DNA of 64,000 nucleotides, from positions 744,001 to 808,000 of the forward strand of contig JAPETS010000005.1 in assembly GCA_026023565.1 (NCBI GenBank). Reading direction: 5' to 3'. This DNA is from Cirrosporium novae-zelandiae. Its lineage: Eukaryota. Below the pieces are notes generated by a model. The model saw nothing but the letters and a program-made list of their open reading frames with translations, was not told where the DNA came from and did not search any database. The position numbers and the translations under genes are program-made. How positions within the stretch are numbered: the first letter of the stretch is position 1; each line of letters begins with the position of its first letter. Shown piece after piece: positions 8,201 to 43,542 of this stretch.

Positions 8201-9483
8201 TCGACCGTACAGACTTTTGGGATGCTCTCCCGGGATTATCAACACTGACAATATGCATACTTCCGGAATGGCGAAAGCTTCCCAAAGATATTTGGGAACT
8301 CCAGAATCAGGTTGATGGGGTCCGGCGATTTGACGAAGTCACCCCATCCTACGCTACTAGGCGACTACATCACTTTGTCAAGGATAATATTGCACGCCTC
8401 ACCAACGTCAAGACTCTAAACCTCGGCTATTTTGGCGGTGGTGAACATGCGCCTGGAATGGGCGCACGAAACAAACATGTGTTGCCAGCCCCCTTGAGCA
8501 GGGATTATCCAATTCATTTACTGAAACGCTTTCCGGGAACAATGTTGATGGCCGGTGATCATATGAAGAACATTCTTAGACTACCCCATGTTCAAAACCT
8601 AACACTCCAAAATTGTTGGATTAGCCCTCCCGTATTGGAAACGTTTATGGGATTTGCCACAGATACTAAACTCAAGATGTTGACATTAGATTCTGTATCT
8701 TTAACGTCCGTGGAGGTAAATTATAAGTCTCCGAATGCCACCCCACAAGAGTTTGCGGATCAAAAATGGCTGGTAACTCAGTACAATACTGGAAGTTGGC
8801 CTGATATTGTGGATCGTATTACGCCAGGCCCAAAGTTATACGACATCCGATATGGTTCATCCGACACGTACATACCACTGCAGCGTCCTCGCACTAATCT
8901 AGAACGCATCGCCTTCAAATCATGTGGATATGTGAGACTCGACGAGCTTAATAACGCTGACTTTGACCAGTCCAAGGTTACTCCTCACCCCAATGCTCTC
9001 CTAGCCGCCCAAGCTTTTCTTCAGGGTCAGATACAGGCAAATTTTATTCCTGCCCAAGTTGACCAGCAGGCTCAAAATCCCCAGGCACCTCAGGCTATGC
9101 AACCTGGCCAGAATCCACAACATATTCTACTCGGGGCAAATCATAATCCATTCGCAGCTTGGGGTGGACAGGCGGCAAATATAAACGCCAATGGACATAG
9201 ATGGCCACAAACACCCCATCACCCAAACGACTTCACTCTCGACTGGCGCCGCGGGATACTAAAGCCCCAAATGCTTATATCCAAAGACCAGAATCTCGGT
9301 TCCATCGTCACATTCATGCCCGAAGAAGATGAGAAATATCTGCAGTTCGCGTTTGGCATGCAGATTGGGTGGGGTGACGATCCAAGACAATATGAGAATC
9401 TGGAGGATGGTCATGTTCGCGGGGGTGAAGGGCGCTTCTCCGGGGAAGTGTCTAGGTTCGACGTACCTCCAAGTTTTGAATGA
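5281..9483 (+). CDS. Large F-box-domain protein with disordered N-terminus and LRR-like C-terminal region
   Basis: ORFs 5209-6654, 6852-7310 and 7291-9483 join in frame via introns 6602-6654 and 7297-7345. F-box-like PLELFHTIGKYLTIQEIKRLRLVNREF; LxxLxL repeats later. First ATG at 5281; the true start is uncertain. Confidence 0.8.
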
Positions 9484-14532: not shown

Positions 14533-15553
14533 AAGAAAATAGGCAAGTACTAAGGAGATAAGTAGATAAGTAGATCAAAGTGGCTAAAGAAAAGAGAAAA
14601 AAAGAATATGGATGTGGATATGGATGTGGGATGAGTATGGGTATGGGAATGTTGGAGAGGTGGGTATGGAAATAAGGGGTGGAAAAGAGAGGTAGGGAGG
14701 GAGGGGGAATATCTGAAATGTTTGATTTGATTTGGTTTTTTCTCTGGTTGTGTAAATGGATAGTTAGATGGATAAGGACAGGGTAAAAATAAAGGTGAAA
14801 TAGGAGGGGGGGAGACTCTCTCTTTCTCCTTTTTTTTTTGGTTTTTTTCGCTATATGATCCTCTGCAATGAATTTCATGTTTTACATATAAGAGCAACAC
14901 CAACAGTACCAAAGACCAACACACAAAAAGACAAAAGCAAACTTATTTATTTCCTCTTCTCTCCACAAAGGTGATGAATGATTCGATTTGACTTGACTGA
15001 CTGATAGCTAGACCCCCTCCTATCCCTCCCCTCCATTGGCACCATTTTGCATCACCCCCTTCTTAGCTATCTATCAGATACATATCGTTGCATACCATAC
15101 ATGCATGCATTGTATGACAAGAAGGAAATGGAAAGAAAATAAAAGGAAGATAAAAAGACATAATCCACATTTCTGACATGATGACGCCGTGAACGCCCCT
15201 TTGTAATAGCAGTGTGAGTGTGTGTGTGCAGATGTGACTGCACTTTCCTTTTCTTCTACGGTTCTTCTCTTAAGTAAGCAGGTAAGGGTGGCTTTTTAGG
15301 GTATCAAGCCGTTCCATCATGTATGTTAATGTAGTAGTCATCCGTAGTGGTGTCCAGGTAATGAGGTATGGTGAGGTGTGTATGTGTTGTGGTAGAGAAG
15401 TTGGCTTTGGAAAATCAGGGTCAACAGACATTTGTTGCATGTTTGATGGATTTTGTAATGTCCTGGAATCAGATGGAGACGGGGATGGAAAACCTTGAGA
15501 TTGTCGAACATGAGAAAGGCGGCTTCTGCTTTTTTTTTATTGTTGAATTTTGC

Positions 15554-16918
15554 TTATACAGTGCGGTCGTATCGACCAACTACTATACAATGATCTCTTT
15601 CAAATGGTTCTATTGAAAAGGATAGTGATTAGCATTTGGGGGGTTTCGAATTTCTAAGGAAAACATACCTAATGTCAATTGTTCAAGTGGTTTTATTCTC
15701 TCGTCCCGCATCTTCTGGACTTCGCGAGAGAAAACTGCTTCGGGTGCTGCTGTGCTGTCGATACAGTTTGCTTTGATTGAAACTACGACTCCACCACCTG
15801 TCTTGAGGAAATTGTGTGCGTTAATACCCACAATACGTGCTTGATCTGGCTGGGCAACATCGGCAAAGATCACATCAACCATTGGTACTAGCATTCGGTA
15901 CCTGAGCGGGTAACGGGCATCTTCAACGATTGGAATGACGTTTGTGCGGTGAGTTGCCATGTTGATGAGATCACGACCACTGCGGTGGGAGAATTCGACG
16001 GCTGAGATGGATTAGTCTCCAATCATACACGGGTATACAATATTTATACACACCATATACATTTCCTTCCGGTCCAACGATATCAGCAACGTGCGAGACA
16101 GATGTTCCAGAAGCAGCACCCAAATAAAGCACTTTCTTTCCTGGAGCAATAAAGATGTTATCCAGACCACCCAAAATACCTGCAGCAAGCTTGCTGCGGA
16201 AGGGATTCCAGACACGGTATTCGATTTTCGAGGCTGGAGGAGCCTCCGAGTCTCCATTCGTTTGAGGAGCGGCAGCAGTTTCAATTGAGATTCTCTTTTC
16301 GCCGTAGACCGACTCGCCTGGGCTCAAGTTCTTCGTCACCAGCAAATCTTCCTTGCCCCGAGCTACGAAAACACCACCATGGCGATGGGGTTCGACAACC
16401 ACCCTGGCACCACCTCTTGCTCCTCCCCTACCACCACCGCGTGGGGCACCGCGACCTAGTACATGTTAAATTCGGCCGTGCTCCAAGATATAGCATAATA
16501 TTACTGACCTCCACGGAAGCCACCTCTAGGGGCTCCTCGTCCACCTCGAGCACCGCCACGACCACCGCCACGAGAACCAAATCCTAGTCCTTGGTAGGGT
16601 TAGTTTTATATTCTTCTAACAATATGATTTCGTAGGAGTTTCTTATGTGCGACTGCGGGATTTTTTTTATTAAAGCCATAGCACTCGCCGTTCAAAGGGT
16701 GCTATGTGGCTAGAAAACTCTTGGCTTAAGTCGCGGAATTGGTAAATGTAAAATTCCTACCTCCTCTGCCGCCTCCTCGGGCACCACCTCTGCCTCCTCT
16801 GTCTCCTCTGTATCATGGTCAGTAATAGTCCTGACACTGGTTCGCACTAGGTAATCCGTGGTCCAGATTCGTACCTTCCACCTCCTCCACCTCTTCCACC
16901 TCTAGGTATAAATCCCAT
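15554..16918 (-). CDS. NOP1: Fibrillarin, box C/D snoRNP rRNA 2'-O-methyltransferase
   Basis: Six exons (16918-16875, 16807-16761, 16583-16509, 16455-16054, 16001-15669, 15609-15554). RGG/GAR N-terminus; [44 protein letters not shown] and LEPFERDH motifs. Confidence 0.98.
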
Positions 16919-17494: not shown

Positions 17495-18424
17495 TTACCT
17501 AGCCATCCAGCCCCCATCTACAGCGATAACTTCGCCAGTGATATATCCGCTTCCTTGTCCAGCCAAGAACACAATAATTCCTTCGAAATCTTCTGGCTTT
17601 CCCCATCGCCCTGCCGGAATCCTCTCCATGATACCCCGGTTTCTATTCTTGTCCGCGATCAATGCTACATTCATATCTGTATCGATATAGCCAGGTGCTA
17701 TTGCGTTGACTGTGACACCCTTGCTAATCCACTCGTTGGATAGCGCTTTTGTCAGTTGGCCTACCCCTCCTTTCGACGCTGCATACGCAGGAACCGTGAT
17801 ACCACCCTGGAAGGTGAGTAATGATGCTACATTGATAATACTGCCTCGACGACGGTTGGCTGGAGAAGGCTTGGAGAGCATGTGGGCGCCAATATCGCGG
17901 CAGAGAGTGAATACAGAGGTCAGATTAACTTGAAGAACCTACGTACGGCGCACGATCAGTATCGGCTCCACATACTTCTTAGCTTCCTTGATATACTCAC
18001 CTCGCTCCAATCATCGTCTGGAAATTTCTCGCTCGGATGTCTCCTCTGAATCCCCGCACAGTTCAACAGGATATCTACCGTGTGACCATCTTTCTCGATT
18101 TTCGGTGTTATTGCCTTTACAGATTCATTCGACGATAGATCTGCGTCATATATCACTGCTTTACGGCCCAATTTCTCTATCGCTTCTTTGGTGCCCTGGT
18201 TCGAATGGTCTCGCTAGGCCTACTATTAGCACCTCCCCATAATATTTGACATGTGTTCCTGGGGATATTCATTGAGGAGATTGAAGAGGCTATACCTGAA
18301 TTAATAAGATATCTGCCCCCGCTTTCGCCAGCGCAAGGGCCATTGCCCGTCCGATACCCCTCGTTCCACCCGTCACTACGGCCGTTTGGCCTTGTAATGA
18401 GAATAATTCGTCAATAAAAGTCAT
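17495..18424 (-). CDS. Short-chain dehydrogenase, KduD / gluconate 5-dehydrogenase (5-keto-gluconate reductase)-like
   Basis: Exons 18424-18296, 18213-18001, 17938-17495. [37 protein letters not shown] and VDGGWMAR are typical of the KduD/IdnO subfamily. Confidence 0.9.
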
Positions 18425-19659
18425 TTTGACAAATATGAAGGATGTAAAAACGTAGATGAAGTTGCAATACAATAAAATGTCGTCAAACTAGGAATTCAGC
18501 CTTTACTTAGAATCTCGCTCTACGAACATTCTCCGGTCTTAAATATCGGGATATGCCCTCGGGAACAAGTTTTCCCAACATCCTAGGGCAAATGGCGAGT
18601 AGCCTCTCTCAAGCATCAACCGATATCAGTCATTTGCCGTCGACTAGACTAAGCAGTACGGATAATGAATCCACAAGAGAATTGTTCAATCCTCCCCAAA
18701 GCAGGTAATTAACGAAAAAAAATCAAACGCCGAAATCTGGTGACTTGGGCGCAAAAACATGTACTATAAGAAAAGGAAAGTGTAGCCATAACAGTGTAAA
18801 TATGCGAGCCCGAATTCTTGACATTATTAGGTATTAAATACAGATAGATACTGGCCACCACAGGCCCAAACACTTGTACACAAATAATTACAATACCTTT
18901 TAAGAATGAATGCAATTAGAAACAACACACACTCAAAAGAGAGGGCAGTTAACTTAGTTTTAGCCTCGAATAATGGCATGGCACTTCGACTTGTTTTTTT
19001 GTGCGCTGGTTGGTTTTGCTCCGATGTCCGTCGTTGTTGTTCGGGTTTTGAAAACATTCCCCACAATTTGTCTGTCCTCTCTTGGACTCGCTCTTGGGCT
19101 GACGGGGACTTGTGGGTGGGTTAATAGCCGTCATTTGCCGATAGTGTGGGGGGAGGGGGGAGGGGGGAGGGAAGGGAAGACTTTGAGAATTCGAGTTTTG
19201 GTCGGGGGACTGACTTGAGCCCTAAAAGTCAGGTAAAACTTTTGGGGTGTTTGTTTGTTTGTTTGGGGTTTAGGAAATTGATGGGAGCTCTTTAATAGAT
19301 ATCCATAAGAGTTTTTGATTTCCTCTTTGTTGGGTAAAATCAAATCAAATTCTGTTTCTTTCCTCGACGGGGTTTTTTGTGGTGTCGCTGTACATGTACA
19401 TGTACGTACGCAGTGCTACCTAGAGAAGTTATTATATAATTACAACTAGAGATGTTCTGCTTGTAATTAGAGCATACCGAACTTCAGCCGGTATATGGAA
19501 TATGAATCGAATCTTATGATTAGGTAGTTTAATTCGCTGATATCTCTACCTTTCTTTTTTTTTACTCATCTGTTAATCAGGCATGGTTCTTTTTTTCTTG
19601 TTCTAATTACTGTCTTCCTTGGGAGCTTAAGGTGTTTTTCTAGTCTCCAATCCTGCTTT

Positions 19660-20200
19660 CTAATCTGATAGCTTGACATCTTGGTTCTTCTGTATGTTTT
19701 TTCTGCATATATAGTTGGTTTTGTATTGTTGTTTGGGCAAAATTATAATCAGATCACGTTCATGGTAAGCTATAAGTTTTGCGTTCAGTGTGCCTATGCT
19801 TTTTGCCATATACGCATTCTTTAGCAGGTTGGACATTAGTTTGTTGACCCTTTTTTCTTCTTCCATTTTTGGGCGTATTGTGCTGGATCTTATCACCGCT
19901 ATCGTTGGGGGGTGTGGTGTCTGGTGTTTCACTATTGACAAGTCCCTTTGGGCCAGACTTGGTTTTAAATAGTCTCTATCGCTGTGAGTCTTATGTTGGA
20001 GTCTTGATTCTTCCTTGACCAGTATATCCTTGAGTGTGGACATGTCTAGTACTAGTTGTGGTTATTCTACCCGCTTCTGGATTCGGTCCTTTTTTGACTT
20101 TATTTATCAACATATCTGTTCGCGATAACCTCAATAGCCCTTCTTGGAAATAACAGCGACGCTGAGAGAAATAGGACAAGATTAGGTAAGTTGGTCAGCT
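19660..20200 (-). mobile_element. Possible degenerate retrotransposon gag remnant
   Basis: LKDILVKEESRL segment, followed in another frame by CVYGKKHRHTERKT (decayed CX2CX4HX4C spacing). No LTR or pol seen. Confidence 0.3.
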
Positions 20201-21480
20201 TCATCTCATTCAATAACCGTAACAATGTCAAGATTCGATGACACGGAAGATAATTCTACGTATGATATGACTAAGCCACTGAAGACAGAGCCACAGAGTC
20301 CTATTATTAGCATTCAGCCGTGGCTCTCAAAATCAGGTTGAGGGATATCTGGAACATCATGAATGTATCCTGATCTCTTGAACGGGGGTAGATTGAGGGT
20401 ACCTATACTGGAAATCTAAGCTAGTTAGTTGCCGGATGCATTGCTTGGTACGGAGCAGATGAATGGTAAGTTGGTAACGGCAGAGGATCTAGTTCCCAAC
20501 TGGGGTCGAGGGGTCACTGGGTCATTGGAAATGATGGGGTATTCTCCAGCTTATGATAGTTATAGGCATTAAGCAAGAGATACAAGATAAGCTAAAAGAG
20601 ATCCAAGAGGTGCGTACGTGCTCTTCGGAAAATTATCACGGTCATCAGGCACAATAATTCGGGTTACCCCCAGAATAGGCTATGTGGATGGTAGGTTATC
20701 GAGCAAATGCCGGCTAAATACACACTGTGTCCTGGTTCTGGGTTTGAGTTTAGGAGAAAATGTATTTAGGCCGATAGGGTCCTTCATTCCCCTATGCCAT
20801 GAGTCCACGACATCAACAAGAATAAAGTTAGTTCTACTATGGGGCTGTGGTTTTCTGGGGCATTCGGACTGGCTCCCCACTCAATGACATTCCGCAGTGA
20901 GGGTGCGGAAAGGCCTAAAATGGGGGGAGGGGATAAAGGAGGCTAGAGTGGGAAGTCAAATTAACCCCCCAAAGGCTGCTATGAAAAAGAGCACCAAACA
21001 AGTGACCAATTCCACCAATGTTAATTACTGGTTGGATTCTTTTTCCCGGTGGGAGATTTCTCCCACCCGAGAAGATGTTTCACATGTACGGATAGTTATT
21101 CCAAAAAAACAATGCTTCTCGAATATGATGAGTTGATGTCAGGTAATATGTTGATGGATTTATAAAGTGCTCGTGGGGGATACATCCCGACATTGCCGGG
21201 GTATTCCCACCCAGACTAGTAACGAATGCTGGCACTGTAATTCTGCCGATGCCGAGGTTGGTGTAACTGTTCCGAATGTCCTCCTCGCTTAGGTGGTGGA
21301 ATTGCAATGTCTAGAATATGAGCCGCGCCTGAAAGAAAGAAGCTCATCTTGGAGCACCTGAGGCTTTCGCCTCTTATTGCTCGCTGTCTTCTGGAATCTT
21401 TTGATGATGGATTTTGGATCTTCGAAACTTTCCAATTCCAACCGTTAATGACCAGCATGGTGCGGTCAATCCATGCCTAA

Positions 21481-23758
21481 ATGAAGCGTGTCTCTAGAGC
21501 TTGTCTACGATGCCGATCGAGAAAGAGTCGCTGCGACTTGTGAGTTTTGTCGCAACAACGTTGAGATGCTGTGCTAATATGTTTGGTTTTATAGAGATAG
21601 CAGCGGTAAGCCAGGCACACCTCCATGCCAAAGATGTGTCCGCGATCAAGTCGAATGCATTTTGGGGGGATCGAATCGCGGTGGAAGGAGGATTCGAAAG
21701 ACCGTTGCTGCGCCCGAAAATACACTCACGACTACATTGGTGGCGGAAAATAACTCTGCTATTGGTGTAGACGATCTCACAAGGTCAAGGTTATCGAATT
21801 TCGCTTCCAGCCCTACATATGCTTCTAACCCGGTTCGACAATCCCTACAAACCACCGTACCATCTCCCGAGAGTCATCGAACTTCAAATATCAGAGAAAT
21901 TCCAGAAGAAGAGACGGCCTCTGAAATTGATAGTGCCATTGCCTCGACCGATATTCGAAACCCATCCGATGCCTGGCAACTTCTTACCGACGTTGCAACC
22001 CGAGGCTTGCATGAGAAAACTACCGATCTACGGAAAGCATGTACAATTGCCGGATTGACTGCACAAACGCCGGAGGAGGAGCCCGCTCGAAGGGAGTATG
22101 GAGATCCTCAGCAAAATCCTCCTGCTGTAGAGATATCGATTCCTAATACATCAAGCTACCGACTTATTATGGATGGCTCTTTGACCCCTGCAATGGTCTC
22201 TGAATTGGTAACGAGGTTTGCGGAACGGTATCATCCATATCTTCCTCTAGTCCCACGGAAATTTCTAGATCCATCCAATTTAGGGATCTTTGTAGTAGAA
22301 GAGCCGCATCTTTTGACGGCGATAATCACAATTGCTTCTACAACATTAGTTGAATATCCCTACATACACCGAGCTTGCTCCAAATATATGCACGAGTTAA
22401 TTTCTGAGATTGCCGCTGGCAAGGAATGCGATGTAGAAGCCGTTGAGGCTCTGTTGTTGCTGGCCGAGTGGGAACCGCAAGGCTTACGCGTCAAGGTAGA
22501 CGATATCGGTCGCGGCGAGGAGGACAGAGCTGCATGGATGCATGTTGGTCTCGCGCTTCGGTCTGGTTACTTCCTTGGGCTTGATCAGACCAGCTTCAGA
22601 AGTGTTGATGATGAAAAAAACATAAAGCTTGGCCGACGAAGACTGGCATGGGCTAGTTGTTATGTCGCGGATCGTCTAGTGTCCGTTCGAATTGGCCGTG
22701 CTTTCTGGTCTCGAGGACCAGGACCGACTAGCGCATTCCGAAGTCAGGATTTCCCCTCACTACTTCCTATCAATGCTGGAGATGAAGACTATGCAAGCAT
22801 ATTTCAAGCAACCTTGGAGTTAACTCAGCTTTATAACAACGTGCACGATGTCCTCTACTCCGGCATGAGTACGAATAAACAAATTATGCTTGTAGGGGAC
22901 TACGTCAAATATATTGATGATTTTCGAATCTCTATCTATGGGTGGAAGCGTCTCTGGGGAAGCCTCAAATGTTCTCCGAACTTGAAGGCAACCTTGATTC
23001 TCTCTTACGAAAACCTGAGGCTATATACTACCGCTTTCGCCTTCCAGGCAACCATCACCAGAACAATGTCTTCGCGATCAGAGAGGGACCCCCAAACGGT
23101 TCGTGAACGTGTGAGGGCTGCCTTCACCGAGCCTGCTTCAATGCCTGATGCCAGATTCATATATGAATCTATGGATGCCGCCAAGCAATACCTAACCACC
23201 CTCAACAACTATGTGGATCCAGAGACGTGCTTGCGTTACCTACCAGTGAAATTTTATCTGTATACTATATACACTGCCGTTTTCCTATACAAAGCGAGAT
23301 CCCTTGGTACAATGAGTTTATCCGAGGAAGCGGACGTCCGACAACTTGTCAATGTTTCCATCGATCGACTCCGGAGGGCTAGCTTCTCATCCCAGGACCT
23401 TGGATCACGATATGCTCGGCTTCTTGAACTTCTATGGGACCAATCCAGACTCTCGAGATCAGCGACCACTAGTGTTACCCCTGATCTACAATCCGCCCGT
23501 CTCCCAGATGTCAACAGAGGTCAAGGAGTCTCGAGCTATTCTGGCTTCAACCCAATTACGAATTTTTCTTGGCTAGATATTGGAGCCGTGGGTGATTATG
23601 TTTCCAATCCTTCCTCTGCAGCTGTGACAAATACATATCCTATGAATGGGTCTAGCTTGCAGGCTACGGCCGATATCCAACAACCGTGGGGCTATCGTGA
23701 TAGACTCTCGTGGGACAACCACAACTGGGTACCGAACGAGCCAGGTTACATATTCTGA
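21481..23758 (+). CDS. Zn(II)2Cys6 transcription factor with fungal TF middle homology region
   Basis: Exon 21481-21539 (MKRVSRACLRCRSRKSRCDL) plus intron 21540-21594 joins PPCQRCVRDQVEC and the 698-aa ORF in frame. Confidence 0.93.
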
Positions 23759-24218
23759 AGCTTCGTGGAGTTATGAACCTACAGATTGTCCATTAAAGCC
23801 GTGATGTTTAATCGCCGAAATTTCTCAATAAGTTTATGGTTCATCCACAAGTTTGTCCCTGTCTCCTAGTCCCAAGCAGCACGCTCATGCACTAAACCAT
23901 CGCAAATTTGTTAACTATACTTAAAAGCATCTTCAGCGCAGCATTTTAGACATCATACTAATGCTTGTTGCTTGCTGTTACATGGAGTATGGCGTTCCAA
24001 TAGAACATTGATGCCAAGACAACTCGGTTTTGGCAAGTCGTTTCTCCCGAGCCGTCGGGGTTCAAATACCCGAAACAACTCCCGGGACAACACCCCCCGC
24101 TTCAATAGCCGACATTTCCTTATCGGCGGTTTCTTGCTTTACCGCTAAGCTATTTGGTTAAGACCACGATCTTGCAAACTGCATGTAGGCAACCTCAATC
24201 TCAGAATCTTTTTGAGAT

Positions 24219-25102
24219 ATGGATATTAAGGAACAATGCAGAATTGAAGGTCGTCTTGCCCTGATCACAGGAGCGTCTGGTGGGTAAGTCATAACTCCTC
24301 TCGATTCGATTTTCTAAGGACTCACTGACGTTTCACAGCATAGGTAGTGCCTGTGCACGACAGTTTGCGGAAGAAGGCGTGAATCTTGCTCTAACTTGTT
24401 CCTCGCACCCCGAGAAACTCGAAACCCTAGTCTCAGAGCTCAAGAAAGTGTCCAAGAAAGATTTGCGCATTTCAACTCATAAAGCTGATCTGGCGTCCGT
24501 TGAGGAAATACAGAGACTCCTCGAAGAGGTCAAGGAAGAACATGCCCAAAGCGTAGATATATTAATATCGAACGCGGGTTACGGCAAGCGGATCCGAGAT
24601 ATCTCAGACATTCCCCTCGAAGAGTTTGAATACACCATAAACGTGAACCTCTGCGCACCGTTCTTACTGGTAAAAGGCGTCGTTGACGAAATGAAAGCTC
24701 AAAAATGGGGTCGCATCATTTTCATCTCCTCAATTGCTGCCTATGGAGCTGGGATTAATGGCTGTCGTATGTTCATGTTCTCCTTTTGAATATACCCACC
24801 CCAATTAAATGTCTCTATTTTTTTTTCTAGATTACGCAGCCTCCAAAGGCGGAATCACAAGCATGATGAAAAACCTCTCCTCAAGACTCGCCTCCTACAA
24901 CATCTCCGTCAACGACGTCGCCCCCGCCATGATCGGAAACACGGGCCTGATCCCCGATGCCGAACAGGTTCCAGAAGCCCTGGAGGGCATACCGCTAGGG
25001 AGGTTGGGCACGCCTGAAGAGGTTGCGAATGTGGTTTCGATGTTTGCAAGGACGGGGTATGTGACGGGGCAGAGTTTGGTTGCTGGAGGGGGGTTGAGGT
25101 GA
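24219..25102 (+). CDS. Short-chain dehydrogenase/reductase (FabG-like)
   Basis: Exons 24219-24283, 24339-24766, 24831-25102. TGASGGIG, SNAG, ISSIAA and YAASK motifs. Confidence 0.9.
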
Positions 25103-25300
25103 TGGATGTGATGGTGGTGATGATGAGAACACCCATATTGTTTTTTAAAGCGGATATATATACATGTATACATACATACGTACCAGAAATGAGTAATTCA
25201 AAAGTGATGATGTGATGGTGATGAGGCTGGTGAAGCTGATTGATAACAACACCGATATTTTTTTTTAAAGCGGATTATATATATACGTACAGTACAATAG
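25100..25300. repeat. Imperfect tandem duplication, 120-bp period
   Basis: AACACCCATATTGTTTTTTAAAGCGGATATATA at 25128 recurs as AACACCGATATTTTTTTTTAAAGCGGATTATATA at 25248, each preceded by GATGTGATGGTG-like sequence. Confidence 0.8.
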
Positions 25301-25399
25301 AGTATAGGAAGTGAACGTCATATTTTCGCTTAATTTTCGCTTAGTTTTCAACTTCCAATATAATATTTTCTCTTTCGTTTTTTTTTCTCTTGCAAACTG

Positions 25400-26777
25400 C
25401 TAATTACTCTCTATAATGACTTTCACAACCGGCTGTCCCTGTTCGTCCTTCCCCGCCTTTGCCAACTCAAACGCCTCCCTCCCCTCCTCTAGTGACTTCC
25501 GATGCGTAACCAGCTTCTCAATCCCCGCCAACTTTCCACTCGCCATCAAACGAATGGCCGCGGGATATGTATTGGCGTAGCGGAAGACGCCGATGATGTC
25601 GACTTCCCTCAGAGCTGCGGCCCCCAGAGGGAGGGTTTGGATGGGTCGGCCCATGCCGATTAGGATTAGTTTTCCGCCGGGGGTGGAGGCGTAGATGCTG
25701 CTTTGGACGCAAGGTTCTACGCCTGTGCATTCGTAAACGGCATCGAACCCGAACTCCCTGTTGTTGCCTTTTAATAGAGTTGCTGAGTCCTGGGCGTTTT
25801 TTAGTTTCTCCTCGATGGTTGGTGATGATGGTGATGGTGGCTTCGTGGGAAGCGTAATTGTGTGGATGCCAGGAATCAGCGCTTCGGCGATTTTTAATCT
25901 TTGGCTGTCGATATCTGCGATTACGATGTCGACGATTCCGTGGACTGATAATAGCATGGCGGTTAGAAGGCCGACGGCTCCAGCGCCCATGACTAGTGCT
26001 GAGCTTCCGGATTCGGGTTTTGATCTTCGCATCGCGTGGAGGCAGACGGCGAGGGGTTCGATAAGCGCTCCTTGGTCGAATGACACTTCGTCTGGAATTC
26101 TATAGGCTGTTAGAATGCTCCGTCTTTCAGTGGGGGGGGGGGGGGGTTCAAAGAAGCACAATATACATACCTATGGCAAAGATCAGAAGGATGGTTAAGC
26201 AACTCAGTCAAAGTTCCATCTATATGTGGAAACACCTTGGCGCTGCTTCTGAATAAAAGCTTCTGGCAGAGGTTGTATCTTCCTTTTTGACATAAGTTGC
26301 AGGTTCTGCAGGGCATGCCGACTTCTAGAGCTACCCGGTCCCCCTGCTTGAGGTTTGTAACTTCAGGACCGACGGCCACAACTACGCCAGCGCTTTCGTG
26401 ACCGAGGCAGAGGGGTGCTCGGACGAGGAAATCCCCATTGCGACCTTCGCTGTAGTAATGCAGATCTGACCCACAGATACCTGTAGCCTTGATAGCGACT
26501 TGGACTTCGGTACCCTTTGGAGGTTCAACTGTTCTTGATTCCTAGAGCGAGATCAAATGGTTAATTTTTTGGGGTCCAATTGGATTTTCACTTATATATA
26601 TATAAGCAGGGGGGTTGGGACCCATACAAATCTCAAATCTTTTGTATCATGGAGCAGTAAAGATTTGGATGGCTTAGTAGCTTCGGTTTGATTGTTGTTG
26701 TTGTTGGCGAGTGACATTTTGAGTAAATTCAGCCTTGATAAAGCAGTACTAGTAGCAGCAGTGTTTTTTTTGCTCAT
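25400..26777 (-). CDS. Zn-dependent medium-chain polyol dehydrogenase (sorbitol / L-idonate 5-dehydrogenase-like, NAD+-type)
   Basis: Exons 26777-26628, 26541-26171, 26099-25400. GICGSDLHYY, LGHESAG, CxxCxxCx7C structural Zn site, GAGAVG, ADID and GVFRYANTYP. Alternative ATG at 26717. Confidence 0.92.
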
Positions 26778-27546
26778 TTGGAATTCTAAGTCTTTGAGAA
26801 ACGGAAAACCCCCTCTCTCTTATAAAGTACGTATCAAAAATAAAAAACAAGAAGTACAAATGTACAAGGGAAAAGATAATGCTGGTAAACGGCGGTTACT
26901 AAAAACCACATAACAGCAGGGTACGGGCTCTACTTTATGATAGCCGATGGATGGGCTACCAAAACAATTGAAAAAGTTGTGGTTGGGTCCGATAGGCCAT
27001 ACAAAAAGGTTTCCACAATTGGTCCTACACTACAGCCAGCCAATTGATCCGATAATTATCAGAGTACAGACAGGTAAGTCTATCCGGAGATAGTTGCCAT
27101 ATTTAATTATCTCGCTGATAGACAACAACTCTTGTGGTGACTACTTTACAAAGTACACTATCTGGTAAAGTATTTCCTCCCATTTCATTTCATTACCCCG
27201 CTAATGAATTGGACCCACAAGAGAGGGGATCATCATCATCATCCGGCGAAATATCAAAAGCCGACGGCTATTAGGCTATATAACTAAACTCTTTCAATTG
27301 CCGACCCCCCCCCCCCCCCCCCCCCATCCGATAACGCCCTTTCTGTGCATTTCCAACTCCATGGTCAGTTAATTATTTTGCCATTCATTATTTTCCGTGT
27401 GATCCTACCTTAGATGGATTTTTATGCTTTAGGATAAAATCTGTCTCTTTTTAAACCTGCCTTTCCTTTTTTTCGGTTTTTTTCTCTTCTTTTCCTTTCT
27501 CGAATAATACCTAGTTATATTTTTTTGTTAAAAAAAACTTGCGACT

Positions 27547-28863
27547 ATGACACGATCCGCAGCTCTCTTGATCGGTGAAATTACTCATGCGAGGAAGGAA
27601 TGGGCAGATTTAGCTTCGAGAGTGACTTTGAAGGTACTTGGACATCTGCATGGCTGAGCTATTGGACTAGGAGTTGAGAATGTGTTTGAATAGGAATATC
27701 CGTCAGGATCGCGGGAAGACTTCATTGAGAAATGTCAAGACGGTAGCTTTGATGATGTTTTTGTCATCTACAGGAGCAATGAATCAACAAGTGTATGTAC
27801 TTCCGGTCTAATTGATCTTTGTATATTATGTCAACGATAAGAAGTAATTAATTGACTAAATCGTTGTAGGTAACAGGACCCTTCAATGCTGAACTCGTCT
27901 CAAAGCTTCCAAAGAGCCTAAAGTACATTTGCCATAACGGTGCTGGATATGATAACATTGAAGTGTCTGCATGTACAGAGAGAGGTATATGCCTTGATTC
28001 TTCCTTTAATATAACACAATTGGCTGATTTGTGGTCAGGCATATCTATCTCATCAACCCCAGTGGCAGTCAATGATGCCACAGCTGATATTGCGATATTC
28101 CTGATGATTGGAGCTTTACGGAAAATTCATATTCCACTAACAGCTGTTAGACAAGGTATCATCTCCTCGCATGGTAACCCCATATCTTGCAATCCTTGTG
28201 GCTCACCATGTACCAGGAGCATGGAGAGGGAAAGCCTTTGGCCTCGGGCATGATCCAGAAAAGAAGACTCTGGGAATTATAGGAATGGGTGGCATTGGCA
28301 CTGTAAGCTCAATCCCACCCTGAGCTTCAACATTGGAGTAATCACTGAACATCTACCAGGAAGTAGCGAAGCGTGCGCGCGCTTTCGGTATGCGAATCAT
28401 TTACAGGAATCTAACTCAACTATCCCCAGAGAAGGAGGCTGAATACGGTGTCAAATTCGTCTCCTTTGACGAACTTCTTTCCCAATCCGACGTCATTAGT
28501 CTCAATCTCTCACTTAACAGGTCCACTCGCCATATAATCTCCACACCCGAATTTGAGAAAATGAAGGATGGCGTTGTGATAATCAATACGGCTAGAGGAG
28601 CCCTGATCGACGAGAAGGCTTTGGTGAAAGCGTTGGAAAGCGGAAAGGTTTCGTCAGTTGGGCTAGACGTTTATGAAAGTGAGCCACAGATCGAACCCGG
28701 ACTGCTGAATAATGAAAATGTGGTTCTGCTCCCACATATTGGGACAGCGACATTTGAGACGCAACGAGATATGGAGTTGTTGGTGCTAGAAAATTTGAAG
28801 AGTGCCTTAAGTAGTGGAACGTTGATCACTCAAGTACCAGAACAGAAAAAAATCAAGGTATGA
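27547..28863 (+). CDS. D-isomer-specific 2-hydroxyacid dehydrogenase (2-keto-aldonate/glyoxylate reductase-like)
   Basis: Six exons and five short introns. HNGAGYDNI, GMGGIG, NTARG, GLDVYESEP and LPHIGT motifs. Divergent from the polyol dehydrogenase. Confidence 0.92.
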
Positions 28864-29276
28864 GTATGATAGACTAGATGGGCAGGCGACTGCTTGAAGT
28901 CATAGCAACGACTATGATAATGTGAGCTGTGATCCGTTTATAGTCATTAGGTCACATCGGAATGTCCGTCATTTCGAACGACACATGGGATCCTACTTGT
29001 GTAACATCAACCTTTTACCATTCCTCAATATACCTTGATATGTGAGAAGGCCACCTACTTCTATGTCTTTGCAGATACTCTTCTATGCCATCGTCCTGTC
29101 CAAAAATTCCTGAAAATCCTACAAGGGCTTTTCCTTTTCCCCTTGCATCATTGTGTTTTGTAGCCACTGTATATCAAGATGTCCTAGCATCCTATTTTTT
29201 CTCGGGCTCGTTCATCTGTGGCACAAGTAGCTTTCTTGACATTGATAAACATAACGAAAATCCAGCCCCATTAATC

Positions 29277-29688
29277 ATGCCCCCTTCAAGAACTCTTATA
29301 TTATCCCTCCTAATCACGCTTCTCCTACCATCTCTTGTCGTCTCCGCGTCGCAAGACCTCCCAATCAACCTCATGGTAGCTCGCTCCGAAGCAGATACAG
29401 AAGCTACCAAGAAAGCCAACGAGTATAACTCAGAAAACTGGTACGTCCCCTAACCCACTCATGACCCTCTTTCCTTAATGAAGTATCTTACATAGCTCGG
29501 GCCCAATTAACTATGGCCACCATTCGACTCTTCTTCACTGCGTGACGATGGATGAGACGAGTCATAGCGTATATCTAGCGGGCGGTACGGCTCACGCATA
29601 TACAGATCAGAGCTGTGGAGCGCACGGGGGAAGCAACATCGGGGCATTGCCTCGTGGATGTGTAAACTTGGATAAATGGAGAAAGTAG
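29277..29688 (+). CDS. Small secreted protein (118 aa, 4 Cys)
   Basis: Exons 29277-29440 and 29496-29688. Hydrophobic signal peptide MPPSRTLILSLLITLLLPSLVVSA; splicing gives an open frame to TAG at 29686-29688. Confidence 0.7.
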
Positions 29689-30684
29689 AAGATTAGGAGT
29701 GTGAAATTTTGAAAGAGGGAGGGAAGGAGAAAGAGAAAGAATGGATACGCCGTGGAGAATTAATTACCAAGCAATGAAGCCTCGGGACTTAAGACACGGC
29801 AGTTGAAGAAAAGATGTTACTTAAGGCTTGGATTATGGATGTATGTATATGAATTTGACTATGCAAGGTATTTTGGCCTCTGAATGGGCAAAAAAAAAAC
29901 GTGTGTGGGAACAGAGATTCATCTCATGATATATAATGTATGCACTTGATTTGTCAAGGTTGATGACCTCCGTCGTAAGTGAGCCAATTAAATCTCATAG
30001 CCTAGCTCTATATTCTCAAATATCAGAGAACTAGCTAAGCTCGTCCACCGCTTATAGATATATCTCAGTCAGCAAGCTTGAATGTGGATCCAAATCTAAG
30101 CAAGAATTAAATGACAAGAATATGGATCGGCAGGGAAACAATTAAACTGAAGCAATGGGCATTACTGTATCAAAGGGATTATGAGTGATCAATAAATGTC
30201 TCCTCGGGAAGAATAGGGAAAGAGATAAGTAATTATTTTGGTGATGGGAGTTGTTGTGTGTGGTGTAAAAAGTCGACACCTGAATATTGGATGACAAATT
30301 GATTGTGGCCTGATACGTATGACGCCATCTTTGGCTTTTTGACTGGCCGTCGTCTTTGTCCAATTTTCTTCATCTTCTCTGCTTTGTGCATACATATCAA
30401 CGTCGTGACATAATCTCTCTCGGCGCTTTCCTAATGTGCTTTTCATCAAAATGGATTAGACTAACTAATGAATCTGCAATTGTTTTCTTTTTCGTGCTTC
30501 CATTAATAATTCAATTGAAGATGGAGGCACTATATAACTCCTGGGGACTCGTACCAAGTGTTTTTTGTTATTTTCTTTTCAGCATTCAAGACAATACCAC
30601 TTCAGCTAACCTCGATAACAATTCATCATCTCACTTGCTAGCTATAGCAGAAAACAGAAGTCTTTCCTCGGCCTCACTACCATC

Positions 30685-31806
30685 ATGTCGAATTCCAAAC
30701 TCTTCACTCCACTCTCTGTGGGTCCCTACAAGCTCTCCCACCGCATCGCCATGGCCCCTCTAACCCGCTTCCGCGCAACCTCTGAACACGTCCCCACTCC
30801 GCTCGTTGCCGAATACTACAGCCAACGAGCTGCCGTGGCCGGCACGCTCCTCGTAACTGAAGCGACCTTCGTCTCCCCCCGCGCCGCCGGCTTTGCCAAT
30901 ATCCCAGGTATCTGGACACCCGAACAAATCGAAGGCTGGAAACTCATCACCTCCGCCGTCCACAAAAAAGGCAGCTACATATTCATGCAAATCTGGGCCC
31001 TAGGCCGAGCGGCAAACCCCGCCACCTTAAAACAAGAATTCAACCTCCCCGTCATCTCCAGCAGCTCGGTCCCTATGGAAGGTGGCGCAGTCCCACGCGC
31101 TCTCACCATCCCTGAAATCCAATCCTTCATCGCAGACTTCGCGCAAGCAGCCAAAAATGCCATCGCGGCTGGTTTTGACGGCGTGGAAATCCACGGCGCC
31201 AACGGCTACCTAATCGACCAATTCATCCAAAGCGTGGCCAACAAGCGCACAGACTCCTACGGCGGCAGCATCGAAAACCGTTCCCGCTTCGCCTTCGAAG
31301 TCACCAAAGCCGTCGTCGACGCCATCGGGCCCGAACGCGTTGGCCTCAGACTCAGCCCCTTCAGCACCTTCCAGAGCATGAAAATGCCCGCCGATGAAAT
31401 CGAACCCCAGTTCTTGCATCTCATCCGCTCGCTCCGACCTTTGCATCTCGCATACCTGCACCTCGTCGAGTCGCGCGTCGCAGGAATCGCGGACGTCGAA
31501 GCCACAGAGAAAATCGACCCCTTCATCGACGCCTGGGGAAACACATCCCCCATCCTCCTCGCAGGGGGGTTCAAACCTGATTCGGCTCGCAAAGCCGTCG
31601 ATGAGGACTACAAGGACAAAAACGTGGTGGTCGTCTTCGGACGCTTCTTCATCGCGAATCCGGATCTGGTTTTCAGGCTCCGTGAGGGTCTCGCCCTGAC
31701 ACAGTATAACCGCGAGACGTTTTATAAGGTCGAGAGTCCAGAGGGGTATACCGATTATCCATTCAGCGATAAGTATCTGACGAGTAATGCGGCTGCGAAG
31801 GCTTGA
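30685..31806 (+). CDS. Old yellow enzyme / NADH:flavin oxidoreductase
   Basis: Intronless 373-aa ORF with MAPLTRFRA, AGFDGVEIHGANGYLIDQF and GRFFIANPDL motifs. Confidence 0.96.
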   Translation: MSNSKLFTPLSVGPYKLSHRIAMAPLTRFRATSEHVPTPLVAEYYSQRAAVAGTLLVTEATFVSPRAAGFANIPGIWTPEQIEGWKLITSAVHKKGSYIFMQIWALGRAANPATLKQEFNLPVISSSSVPMEGGAVPRALTIPEIQSFIADFAQAAKNAIAAGFDGVEIHGANGYLIDQFIQSVANKRTDSYGGSIENRSRFAFEVTKAVVDAIGPERVGLRLSPFSTFQSMKMPADEIEPQFLHLIRSLRPLHLAYLHLVESRVAGIADVEATEKIDPFIDAWGNTSPILLAGGFKPDSARKAVDEDYKDKNVVVVFGRFFIANPDLVFRLREGLALTQYNRETFYKVESPEGYTDYPFSDKYLTSNAAAKA

Positions 31807-41271: not shown

Positions 41272-42248
41272 CTTAATCTTCGTTCTCTACTGCTTGATCA
41301 ACCAGGTGATCGGCTTAAGTCTTAGCAATCTGTCCTAAACATGGGCTTCTCTAGCTTACTGAAGGAGGATATGATTCTAAGCATATTTGCCATGAGTAAC
41401 ATGGGCAACAGAGTCTTTCATTTTAGATTAGATGGTTCTTGAATATCTTCGGATAGAGATCTTGGAAGGCGTTCAGCGATATCTACTTCTTTTTGCGGGG
41501 TGTTGGGGAATTATCTGGAGATGAATTACTTGCTTTGTAGATGAAACGTGGGATGGTTATTGTTTCATCAGCCAAGACTTTTGTCGAGATTGGTTGGATC
41601 GGAGTGGCCAGGTAGGGCCGAAATAAGCATAGACTCCCCGACTCCCCGACTCCGTGTCCAATAGATTCTATCGTTACCCAGCACTTACAGACATCAGCAT
41701 CCTGGAGGCCTTGGGGTAGCTACGTATATAGTCCGGCTTGGAGACCATTAACCATTCTCATCTTTCATCTTCGTAAAAGATCATGGTGGGGCACTTTGAC
41801 TCGAAGCAGAAGGCCATCCGTCAAGTCGGCCATTGTTGGTTGACTTAATGAAGGTAACATTTGCGACCATCTCAAACACAGCAAAGGGAGGAAGTTAGAC
41901 ATCCTGTTTCTCTTCCAGGTATTATAATCATTGGTCATGCTCTGTAAATCTAAGTGTCAGGAAATAAACAATCAGGTAAGTTAAGAATTCCCTACTACAT
42001 GTCTATTCAAGCAAAGATGGTGAATATGTTATGATGTGGTATTTGATTATTGTTTGTTTACTATCGCGATCGACAATCCAAGTTGAAAATTTGAATGAAT
42101 AAACCGGAATTGTTTCTGCTTCTGTTCATTTATCTTCACTTCCCGGAAGCCATCACATCCATCTTGGCATCTCCACCTGTCCTTTTTAATAAGAACACTG
42201 AACCAAGCGCAAGAATCTGTGCCGTTTCTCACTGACTTATTTCTCAAG

Positions 42249-43542
42249 ATGATGCTCCTCACCCCATTGCTTTTGGTTGCTGCAGCCGGTCTCTGCAGCG
42301 CCTGTAATGGCACCAAGCTTTTTGTGGCCTCCTATGCGGGCAGCGTAACTACTCTGTCTCTATCACTTACCTCCAACAATACCTACCAGCTTCAAAATGT
42401 CTCTCGGAATACGGACTGTGCGCCCAGCCCATCCTGGTTGACTCTAGACAAGAAGAATAATGTTCTCTATTGTGCTGACGAAGGACTTTCGACACCGGGC
42501 ATTGGCTCTCTAACATCTTTGTCTGTCTCGCAAAGTGGCTATTTGACCAAGTTGGATCATGCTATGAGCAACAATGGAGGTGTTAGCTCTGTTGTTTATG
42601 GAGGTCGTGGCAAGAATGGAAGCCAGGCACTTGCATTGGCACATTAGTAAGTTAATGTTTCGCCTTGCTGGACTAACTAACTTATTTTATAGCGGTGGCT
42701 CTGCTTTGACAACTTGGGAGCTTACGCCTACTGGCACACTCTCTCTTCTTCAAAACATTACCTTCAACCTCACTACTCCTGGCCCCAACTCAGCTCAAAC
42801 TGCCCCCCACCCTCACCAAGCTATTCTTGATCCGACCGGACAATATGTCCTCGTCCCTGACCTGGGGGCTGACCTTGTTCGCATTTTCTGTATCGACCCC
42901 GAGACCAACGAACTAGCTTCGCACGAACCATTGGAAGTTGAGGCTGGGAGCGGACCAAGACATGCCACATTCTGGTCCCCTCAGAATCTTACGAGCCGCA
43001 CTTTTAAGGAGAACAGTACTTTGTACTTTTACTTATTGAGCGAGCTAGCAAGTACGATAAGCTCCTACTCGGTTACCTATCCAGCGAGTGGAGGTCTCTC
43101 TTTCACCAAGCTCTATTCGTCGGCTACCTATGGCAACTCCACACCTCCCGCGGGAATTGCAGCAGCAGAGGTTCAAATCCGGCCTTCACATTCTCAATAC
43201 CTTCTTCTCTCTAATCGTAACGACTCGACATTCTCCCTTCCAAACATTGACCCTGCGAACTCCACTCATGAGGCTTCTGATAGTCTCGCTACCTTTGAGC
43301 TTAATAATGATGGAACCTTGTTGTTTAAATCACTTTGGCCCTCTGGTGGGACATTTCCGAGACAGTTCCAGATAAATGCCAAGGGAGATATGGTAGCAGT
43401 TGCTGATCAGACCAGCAACAGAATTGTGATCATGAAGAGAGATGCGGAAACCGGGGAAATGGGATATCCAATTGCATACTGGGTAGACGAGGCTGGGGAA
43501 GATGGAACAGGTCAGGTTACCTGTGTGATCTGGGATGAGTGA
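42249..43542 (+). CDS. Secreted beta-propeller lactonase (6-phosphogluconolactonase / carboxymuconate cyclase-like family)
   Basis: Exons 42249-42646 and 42693-43542. Signal peptide; PSWL, PHPHQAILDP, VPDLGAD, GSGPRH, SNR and GGTFPRQF motifs. Confidence 0.9.

What the first reader, a model, noticed from the sequence alone, without database searches (positions are those of the whole stretch)
17495..28863. Five-gene sugar-acid catabolic cluster resembling the fungal D-glucuronate/L-idonate route, with an embedded regulator
Seen: four carbonyl/hydroxyl oxidoreductases and a Zn2Cys6 TF lie consecutively with no other intact gene between them. Established: the Aspergillus niger D-glucuronate pathway uses a D-2-hydroxyacid-DH-type 2-keto-L-gulonate reductase (GluC/GluD), an NAD+ Zn-type L-idonate 5-dehydrogenase (GluE) and an NADPH SDR 5-keto-D-gluconate reductase (GluF), and gluD/gluE were reported as clustered. 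Inference: 27547-28863, 25400-26777 and 17495-18424 fill these three roles. The Asp after the MDR Rossmann strand (ADID) fits NAD+, and the Arg in the SDR (LIQRD) fits NADPH.
Basis: partly seen in the sequence, partly recalled or inferred. Interest (0 to 1): 0.75.

Follow-up and report, generated by a model that had tools for sequence, protein, structure and literature searches.

The report
Fungal sugar-acid cluster with candidate regulator
This fungus keeps three known enzymes for breaking down rare sugar acids side by side with a transcription factor and an extra, uncharacterised enzyme, which supplies testable candidates for the pathway's unidentified regulator and possibly for its one missing step.

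Summary
Five intact, spliceable genes lie consecutively: a GluF-family SDR (69% identical to A. niger GluF), a Zn2Cys6 factor, a second FabG-fold SDR, a GluE-type zinc dehydrogenase, and a GluD-type 2-hydroxyacid dehydrogenase that shares a divergent promoter with it, as in A. niger. Most likely chemistry: 2-keto-L-gulonate → L-idonate → 5-keto-D-gluconate → D-gluconate. The pathway and its gene pairs (gluD-gluE in aspergilli; gluE-gluF by gene numbers in Neurospora/Trichoderma) are published. I found no report of all three together, or of the TF and second SDR. The gluF-[one gene]-SDR2 order recurs in 4 of 15 other species checked, TF and SDR2 occur as merged gene models elsewhere, and an ATWGCCG motif is enriched in these promoters. 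Caveats: no expression or activity data; A. niger GluD/GluE sequences were tested only through proxies; the genome has a second gluE/gluF-like pair, so one-to-one orthology is unresolved; the GluD-like protein has an altered NADPH loop; Neurospora has the orthologues yet does not grow on glucuronate. Verdict: new variant of a known pathway cluster, useful mainly for its regulator and extra-enzyme candidates.

The parts
17495..18424 (-). GluF/KgrA-family SDR, predicted NADPH 5-keto-D-gluconate reductase; exons 18424-18296, 18213-18001, 17938-17495; 261 aa (= P0121)
   Evidence: 181/261 (69%) identical to A. niger An01g12400; TGGTRGIG at 18, YAASK at 166, QR after strand B in 104 of 120 hits; one fungal clade with GluF, SH-aLRT 97
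18425..21480 (.). 3,056-bp divergent intergenic region between the gluF-like gene and the TF; no gene found; ATWGCCG sites at 19124 and 21192
21481..23758 (+). Zn2Cys6 transcription factor, 740 aa; exons 21481-21539 and 21595-23758, the intron splits the zinc cluster; candidate pathway activator
   Evidence: six cysteines; PF04082; nearest relatives 48-49% identical carry PF00172; single copy in G000
23759..24218 (.). 460-bp promoter of the second SDR, with TCAATAGCCGAC at 24102-24113
24219..25102 (+). Second SDR (SDR2), FabG fold, 254 aa (= P0278); exons 24219-24283, 24339-24766, 24831-25102; intact S153-Y166-K170; family motifs NAGYGKR and GINGCHY; substrate unknown
   Evidence: below the FabG cut-off (168.7 vs 297.75 bits); PDB fold matches only 26-33% identical; single close copy in G000
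25400..26717 (-). GluE/IddA-type zinc MDR, predicted NAD+ L-idonate 5-dehydrogenase; exons 26717-26628, 26541-26171, 26099-25400; 386 aa (= P0001); alternative ATG at 26777
   Evidence: C53, H78, E79; four structural Cys; D216; clade with Aspergillus homologues, support 96-97; loop FRSSAKVFPH aligns ungapped to L-idonate 5-dehydrogenase 6dkh
26718..27546 (.). 829-bp bidirectional promoter shared by the gluE-like and gluD-like genes; ATWGCCG sites at 26940 (+), 27271 (-), 27297 (+)
   Evidence: same head-to-head layout as A. niger gluD-gluE, 455 bp (PMC5306355), and as locus L018
27547..28863 (+). GluD/GurB-type D-2-hydroxyacid dehydrogenase, predicted 2-keto-L-gulonate reductase; 6 exons; 335 aa; catalytic R247/E276/H294; cofactor loop YRNLTQL
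   Evidence: 66% over 332 aa to the gluD-type gene of L018; about 56% to the genome's other close paralogue at C36

Best explanation
An inducible catabolic module for keto-aldonic acids. The GluD-type enzyme reduces 2-keto-L-gulonate to L-idonate. The GluE-type enzyme oxidises L-idonate at C5 with NAD+ to 5-keto-D-gluconate. The GluF-type SDR reduces that with NADPH to D-gluconate, which an unlinked gluconokinase feeds into the pentose phosphate pathway. The net effect is C5 epimerisation (L-idonate to D-gluconate) by an oxidation/reduction pair. The substrate comes from D-glucuronate through unlinked early steps, or directly as 2-keto-L-gulonate, L-idonate or 5-ketogluconate. The embedded Zn2Cys6 protein most likely activates these genes, plausibly through ATWGCCG sites. 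SDR2 most likely works on a related keto-aldonate. SHOWN: gene models, family and clade membership, catalytic and cofactor residues, conserved linkage, motif enrichment. INFERRED: all activities (about 0.75), TF control (about 0.55), SDR2 in the same pathway (about 0.5), motif bound by this TF (about 0.35).
For: GluF: 69% identity, same clade. GluE-type: clade with Aspergillus MDRs; the long loop F[RK]SSAKx[FY]PH in at least 89 of the 98 listed hits that span it (of 120 hits), shared with solved L-idonate 5-dehydrogenase and absent from sorbitol/xylitol/arabinitol dehydrogenases. GluD-type: N-terminus matches the gluD primer; 66% to the L018 partner; divergent pairing as published. Linkage elsewhere: NCU01904/01905 and TrC1352/1351 in Table S2 of PMC13158570; consecutive gluF/gluE-type tags in two Pseudogymnoascus strains; 11 of 17 fungal-type metagenome loci have gluF-like next to gluE-like, 1 of 17 gluD-like. 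gluF-[one gene]-SDR2 in 4 of 15 species. TF+SDR merged models: P0651 and a 73-member Atlas cluster. Motif: 6 sites vs 0.67 expected in the window's three intergenic regions, 10 vs 1.04 in 12 clade-B promoters, 1 vs 1.35 in 10 control regions. Gluconokinase and GH115 alpha-glucuronidase are present elsewhere in G000.
Against: No activity or expression data. A. niger GluD, GluE and GluC sequences were not retrieved; those assignments rest on primers, proxies and layout. G000 has a second gluE-like/gluF-like pair at C39 whose SDR is 67% identical to GluF, and the tree does not resolve which SDR copy is the orthologue. The GluD-like cofactor loop reads YRNLTQL where the L018 and C36 proteins read YHNRSRL and YNNRREL, so NADPH use is not safe. 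The full five-gene array was seen in none of the 17 fungal-type loci (many are short contigs), and no TF-family or close SDR2 hit lay in them. gluF and SDR2 are not neighbours in 11 of 15 species. The gene between them in the four positive species was not read. Clade-B promoters carry the motif with no such TF nearby, the W position was chosen after seeing those promoters, and 9 of 256 comparable 7-mers reach 4 or more sites there. The other 15 genome-wide TCAATWGCCGWC sites lie mostly at unrelated genes. N. crassa has the orthologues but did not grow on D-glucuronate (PMC13158570). No transporter or uronate reductase lies in the cluster.
Confidence: 0.72

Rival explanations
1. Two modules side by side: gluD/gluE/gluF act as described, but the TF-SDR2 pair is an independent regulator-enzyme unit for another substrate (like FUR1-FDH1 for L-fucose in Trichoderma) that merely sits next to gluF.
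For: TF-SDR2 is the tightest link; SDR2 is unlinked from gluF in 11 of 15 species and from the gluE-type gene in six Pseudogymnoascus strains; precedent in PMC12370193 (passages); no A. niger protein among the 120 listed of 255 SDR2 hits.
Against: The same three-gene spacing in four Eurotiales species and in this distant lineage; the SDR2 promoter shares the motif with the gluE/gluD promoter; in Phaeomoniella the TF+SDR2 model and the gluE-type MDR list the same 194,472-bp contig length.
Confidence: 0.22
2. Paralogue split: the C39 pair does the idonate/ketogluconate work and the window's enzymes act on other substrates (L-iditol, sorbitol, L-sorbose, glyoxylate or hydroxypyruvate).
For: Two GluF-like and two GluE-like copies in G000; database names say L-iditol/sorbitol dehydrogenase; best PDB matches of the whole MDR are sorbitol/ketose enzymes; altered 2-HADH cofactor loop.
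Against: The window MDR, not the C39 one, groups with the Aspergillus proteins; it has the IdnD-type loop; the genome has separate XDH/LAD-type paralogues with the short loop; a gluE deletion did not affect A. niger growth on galactose, galactitol or sorbitol (as cited in PMC13158570).
Confidence: 0.1
3. SDR2 is an enzyme-derived sensor or repressor of the TF, as GaaX is for GaaR (clustered activator-repressor pair, PMC6353982 passage) or, from recall, NmrA and Gal80.
For: Persistent TF-SDR2 adjacency, including merged gene models.
Against: The catalytic triad and nucleotide-binding motif are near-invariant across 50 aligned sequences. The merged models look like annotation artefacts: P0486, in the same 90% cluster as P0651, ends at its own C-terminus, and P0625 has the reverse order.
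Confidence: 0.1
4. Chance juxtaposition of common oxidoreductase genes with no shared pathway.
For: SDR, MDR and Zn2Cys6 genes are numerous in fungal genomes (79 SDR matches in G000).
Against: The three enzymes are the specific relatives of three consecutive pathway enzymes, and their pairings recur across classes.
Confidence: 0.02

Closest known systems
Aspergillus niger D-glucuronate pathway: GluD/GurB, GluE/IddA, GluF/KgrA (PMC5306355, PMC5814732, PMC4870679)
   Same: Same three enzyme families; gluD-gluE head to head on one promoter; SDR 69% identical to GluF with the same LIQRD loop.
   Different: In A. niger gluF (NRRL3_02652) is far from gluD/gluE (NRRL3_00318/00319); here all three are together with a TF and a second SDR. 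The GluD-type cofactor loop differs from its L018 counterpart. No GluC test was possible.
Neurospora NCU01904-01905-01906 and Trichoderma TrC1350-1352 (Table S2 of PMC13158570)
   Same: gluF- and gluE-type genes clustered.
   Different: There the third consecutive gene is a uronate reductase and the gluD orthologue is unlinked; here gluE faces gluD and gluF faces a TF. The head-to-head gluE-gluF layout occurs instead at the genome's C39 locus.
E. coli L-idonate (GntII) system IdnD/IdnO (as described in PMC5814732 and PMC5306355)
   Same: Same predicted chemistry, L-idonate → 5-ketogluconate → D-gluconate, by an MDR plus an SDR; the MDR substrate loop aligns ungapped to 6dkh.
   Different: Only distant similarity (MDR 192 bits vs cut-off 469); intron-containing genes; Zn2Cys6 regulator; no transporter or kinase in the cluster.
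Trichoderma FUR1-FDH1 and Aspergillus GaaR-GaaX regulator pairs (PMC12370193, PMC6353982; passages)
   Same: A transcription factor kept next to an enzyme-like gene of the pathway it controls.
   Different: No sequence comparison with FUR1, FDH1 or GaaX was made; the FUR1 site CCGACGG is not enriched in the window (4 vs 3.2 expected).

Membership tests
GluF/KgrA (fungal 5-keto-D-gluconate reductase) | Classical SDR motifs and a basic residue after strand B | tested here: met
   [17 protein letters not shown] as in GluF
GluF/KgrA (fungal 5-keto-D-gluconate reductase) | High identity and one clade with A. niger GluF | tested here: met
   69% over 261 aa; fungal clade support 97; top genome match to GluF, 239.5 bits
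GluF/KgrA (fungal 5-keto-D-gluconate reductase) | One-to-one orthologue of GluF | tested here: inconclusive
   C39 copy scores 226.8 bits and 67% identity; the tree is unresolved at this node; synteny with Eurotiales favours the window copy
GluF/KgrA (fungal 5-keto-D-gluconate reductase) | NADPH-dependent reduction of 5-keto-D-gluconate | not testable with these tools
   needs an enzyme assay
GluE/IddA (fungal L-idonate 5-dehydrogenase) | Zinc MDR with NAD-type Asp after the Rossmann strand | tested here: met
   C53/H78/E79, four structural Cys, D216; D[IV][DE] found in 114 of 120 hits, pattern not matched in 6
GluE/IddA (fungal L-idonate 5-dehydrogenase) | Groups with the Aspergillus gluE lineage, apart from XDH/LAD/SDH | tested here: met
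   Support 96-97 with A. affinis, A. steynii, A. californicus; these are proxies, the A. niger protein itself was not retrieved
GluE/IddA (fungal L-idonate 5-dehydrogenase) | Head-to-head with gluD on a shared promoter | tested here: met
   829-bp divergent region; published layout
GluE/IddA (fungal L-idonate 5-dehydrogenase) | NAD+-dependent oxidation of L-idonate | not testable with these tools
   needs an enzyme assay
GluD/GurB (NADPH 2-keto-L-gulonate reductase) | D-2-hydroxyacid dehydrogenase with Arg/Glu/His and a GluD-type N-terminus | tested here: met
   R247, E276, H294; AALLI matches primer P19; 66% to the L018 gene
GluD/GurB (NADPH 2-keto-L-gulonate reductase) | NADPH-type betaB-alphaD loop | tested here: inconclusive
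   YRNLTQL vs YHNRSRL in L018; neither the NADH Asp nor the [ST]R[ST]X[RK] fingerprint of PMC6303947; the A. niger GluD loop itself was not seen
GluC/GurA (NADH 2-keto-L-gulonate reductase) | Orthology to NRRL3_08410 | not tested
   sequence not obtained
Sorbitol/xylitol/L-arabinitol dehydrogenases | Short substrate loop (FxAT-PP / FLST-PP type) | tested here: not met
   the window MDR has the four-residue-longer loop
FabG 3-oxoacyl-ACP reductase (for SDR2) | NCBIfam equivalog cut-off | tested here: not met
   TIGR01830 168.7 bits vs 297.75; fold only
Bacterial KduD (database name of the GluF family) | TIGR01832 cut-off | tested here: not met
   298.6 vs 338.85 bits; GluF itself scores 300
Zn2Cys6 pathway-specific activator | Six-cysteine cluster plus fungal TF middle domain | tested here: met
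Zn2Cys6 pathway-specific activator | Binds and activates the cluster promoters | not testable with these tools
   only motif enrichment

The most novel reading that the evidence does not exclude
The window preserves a near-complete ancestral Pezizomycotina cluster that other fungi keep only in pieces; the embedded Zn2Cys6 protein is the unidentified activator of fungal glucuronate/L-idonate catabolism, binding TCAATWGCCGAC; and SDR2 is one of the pathway's orphan activities, either the missing L-gulonate → 2-keto-L-gulonate dehydrogenase or the NADP-linked 5-ketogluconate/L-idonate reductase reported from Fusarium in 1962 with no gene assigned (as cited in PMC5306355).
Probability: 0.2. Interest if true: 0.68.

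Novelty: new variant of a known kind. Interest (0 to 1): 0.45.

Why it matters
The fungal D-glucuronate route still lacks the gene for L-gulonate → 2-keto-L-gulonate (listed as hypothetical in a 2026 model), and my searches found no regulator for it. This locus names one TF and one enzyme that can be deleted or assayed in tractable Penicillium or Aspergillus species where the gluF-[gene]-SDR2 order is kept, plus a candidate DNA site. That bears on engineering fungi for glucuronate use and on 2-keto-L-gulonate (vitamin C precursor) chemistry, and it is a clear case of one pathway's genes being re-paired in different fungal classes. The core chemistry is not new.

Tried and rejected
Brute-force splice search gave no models for two genes; hand-set junctions were used. 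RNA runs: no RNA holder was listed, which is no evidence on expression. TF-SDR2 complex prediction: not folded, no verdict. Bacterial relatives of SDR2: best 39%, neighbourhood uninformative. Structure model and fold search of SDR2: generic FabG fold. Genome-wide motif search to find a regulon: 17 matches vs 6 for the reversed control, 2 in the cluster, the rest mostly beside unrelated genes; no ATWGCCG site in the stretches held around the GH115 gene or three other 2-hydroxyacid dehydrogenase paralogues; AATAGCCGAC alone is not enriched genome-wide (37 vs 39). FUR1 site not enriched. GH67 not found in G000 (the assembly may be incomplete). A real TF-SDR fusion was rejected as a probable annotation merge. 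Transposon or RNA gene in the 3-kb gap: none found. Literature search for the A. niger neighbours of gluF: 0 papers; not in the searchable supplement of PMC9781776. Earlier scan findings: nothing relevant. The careful SDR tree did not finish; the quick tree is cited. The second MDR tree left out 14 of 44 rows; L018, a 126-aa fragment, was misplaced in the first.
Full report
1. Observation. Between 17495 and 28863 lie five genes, each with an open spliced frame: an SDR (minus, 18424-17495, 261 aa), a Zn2Cys6 factor (plus, 21481-23758, 740 aa, zinc cluster split by an intron), a second SDR (plus, 24219-25102, 254 aa), a zinc MDR (minus, 26717-25400, 386 aa) and a D-2-hydroxyacid dehydrogenase (plus, 27547-28863, 335 aa). 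Three models equal database proteins letter for letter; the source labels them Cirrosporium novae-zelandiae with tags _007506, _007508, _007509. That genus is placed in the isolated class Xylobotryomycetes (PMC6712537, abstract). The 3-kb gap between the first SDR and the TF is single-copy and gave no Rfam match and no Pfam match in the 4 ORFs scanned. Its MDR start (26777) is an upstream in-frame ATG; the database model starts at 26717.

2. The three pathway enzymes. SDR 17495: A. niger An01g12400 (P0188) is 265 aa and begins and ends as the gluF primers dictate (PMC5814732, whole text), so I take it as GluF; the accession quoted in the paper was not among the four accessions shown. The window protein is 181/261 identical and lies in one fungal clade with it (support 97). 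MDR 25400: it groups with Aspergillus, Chaetothyriales and Pseudogymnoascus proteins (support 96-97). Its loop FRSSAKVFPH aligns without a gap to solved L-idonate 5-dehydrogenase 6dkh, whereas three of the four other top matches (whitefly ketose reductase, 5vm2, arabinitol dehydrogenase) are 3-4 residues shorter there and xylitol dehydrogenase 7y9p has a different, longer insert; the genome's own XDH/LAD-type paralogues have the short loop. 2-HADH 27547: its N-terminus matches the gluD primer (PMC5306355, parts 1-4 of 5), it faces the MDR across 829 bp as gluD faces gluE across 455 bp, and it is 66% identical to the gene in the same position in locus L018, whose MDR fragment is 78% identical to the A. 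affinis protein. The A. niger GluD, GluE and GluC proteins themselves were not retrieved, so these two assignments rest on proxies. The NADPH inference does not carry over safely to the 2-HADH: its loop is YRNLTQL against YHNRSRL in L018 (loop role from PMC6303947, passages).

3. Linkage elsewhere. Published gene numbers show gluD-gluE adjacent and gluF far away in A. niger, and gluF-gluE-gar adjacent in N. crassa and T. reesei (PMC13158570, passages and supplementary file 4 part 2). Two Pseudogymnoascus strains have consecutive gluF- and gluE-type tags. One metagenome scan kept 80 of 577 confirmed loci; 17 of the 80 were fungal-type. Of these, 11 have a gluF-like gene head to head, 1 a gluD-like gene, and 5 neither (3 of the 5 hold under 60 bp upstream); none showed the TF family or a close SDR2. 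For the new part: in 4 of 15 species where I could read identifiers or contig lengths for both a gluF-type and an SDR2-type protein, the two are two numbers apart (P. cosmopolitanum, P. manginii, P. citrinum, A. nanangensis); in 11 they are not (for two aspergilli the species of the gluF accession was inferred from its series; P. waksmanii was left out because one accession was not read). The middle gene was not read; it is inferred to be the TF because a top TF relative, P0651, is a merged TF+SDR2 model and the Atlas holds a 73-member cluster of about 986-aa TF+SDR models. These merges are probably annotation artefacts of tandem neighbours.

4. A second copy. G000 has another gluE-like/gluF-like pair at C39:233308-235911, head to head, next to a galactonate-dehydratase-like enolase and an aldolase. 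Its MDR belongs to the sister clade with the metagenome gluE-gluF pairs (support 99); its SDR is 67% identical to GluF and is not separated from the window copy by the tree. So one-to-one orthology of the SDR is open; synteny favours the window copy.

5. A candidate cis-element. ATAGCCG was found by comparing the window promoters with L018. In 12 independent clade-B promoters it occurs 4 times against 0.43 expected (0 of 1000 shuffles), though 9 of 256 comparable 7-mers reach that count. Widened to ATWGCCG after seeing those data, it occurs 6 times in the window's three intergenic regions (0.67 expected), 10 times in 7 of the 12 clade-B promoters (1.04 expected) and once in 8.6 kb of 10 control regions (1.35 expected). 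Flanks give the consensus TCAATWGCCGAC (17 sites). A CCG triplet with an AT-rich flank fits a zinc-cluster site (general knowledge). It did not reveal a wider regulon, and nothing shows that this TF binds it.

6. Mechanism. Most likely 2-keto-L-gulonate → L-idonate (GluD-type) → 5-keto-D-gluconate (GluE-type, NAD+) → D-gluconate (GluF-type, NADPH) → gluconokinase (present at C58) → pentose phosphate pathway, under the embedded TF. The genome has a GH115 alpha-glucuronidase, so glucuronate is a plausible feed, but N. crassa has orthologues and did not grow on glucuronate, so the entry substrate may be a downstream keto-acid. SDR2 has an intact triad, a near-invariant NAGYGKR motif and no acidic residue after strand B; the last point suggests NADP(H) and a reductase (inference), which argues somewhat against it being the missing L-gulonate oxidising step and keeps open an NADP-linked 5-ketogluconate/L-idonate or diketogluconate reductase. 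It has no close characterised relative, and no A. niger protein was among the 120 listed of 255 hits.

7. Novelty. The pathway and the gene pairs are known. A cluster of all three, the gluF-TF-SDR2 module, a regulator for this pathway and the motif were not found in nine searches of the held library (open-licence PMC and bioRxiv only). The 2019 review (PMC6353982, passages) and the 2026 model still list the L-gulonate step as unknown. A 2024 thesis and a manuscript under review cited in PMC13158570, the RNA-seq tables behind PMC4870679 (passages seen; no supplement held) and subscription papers were not seen and could already name the TF or SDR2. Other papers were seen as passages only: PMC5153877, PMC6419801, PMC9781776 (plus one supplement search), PMC10744612, PMC2731777, PMC4404067, PMC12370193.

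8. Verdict. A real, correctly read cluster; a new variant of a known pathway arrangement. Core assignment about 0.72. Interest 0.45: the chemistry is ordinary, but the locus makes two open questions of fungal sugar-acid metabolism directly testable.

Noticed in passing
G000:C39:229500-236000 (L092 4505-9533; L093 1257-3914, MFS at 7483-8791): Second sugar-acid cluster: DHDPS-family aldolase, galactonate-dehydratase-like enolase (441 bits, over the NF010624 cut-off), clade-B GluE-like MDR and GluF-like SDR head to head, and an MFS transporter about 3.5 kb downstream. It suggests a non-phosphorylating exit (dehydratase plus aldolase); PMC9781776 says the fungal gene for 2-keto-3-deoxy-gluconate cleavage is unknown.
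   Followed up: partly
window 19123-19138 and 24104-24119: Two promoter sites agree in 14 of 16 bases, extending the ATAGCCG core.
   Followed up: partly
G000:C1:1260007-1260876 (L097/L098): Three TCAATWGCCG copies within 870 bp upstream of another fungal transcription factor gene (PF11951); an aldo-keto reductase-like ORF and a P450-reductase-like ORF lie 5-6 kb upstream (the two family names are read from the sequence, not scanned).
   Followed up: partly
G000:C57:299438-300780 (L116): A xylitol-dehydrogenase-type MDR has a TCAATTGCCGG site about 300 bp upstream of its open frame.
   Followed up: no
window 28408-28428: The GluD-like protein has lost the two arginines of the NRSR loop seen in L018 and has gained one two positions earlier; a possible cofactor switch.
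   Followed up: partly
window 30619-31806 (+): Intronless old-yellow-enzyme family oxidoreductase (PF00724) 1.8 kb beyond the cluster; no ATWGCCG site upstream.
   Followed up: partly
window 29270-29500 (+): Short ORF with a hydrophobic, signal-peptide-like start between the cluster and the old yellow enzyme; no Pfam match.
   Followed up: partly
window 42099-43542 (+): Seven-bladed lactonase (PF10282) with a signal-like N-terminus, 13 kb from the cluster; it could be an aldonolactonase.
   Followed up: no
window 15270-16465 (-): Fibrillarin gene flanks the cluster on the left.
   Followed up: no
G000:C35 and C47: The two contigs give identical matches at identical or near-identical coordinates, suggesting a duplicated contig in the assembly.
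   Followed up: no
P0082, P0112: Calocera (basidiomycete) proteins belong to the same long-loop MDR family, so the family predates the ascomycete clades.
   Followed up: no
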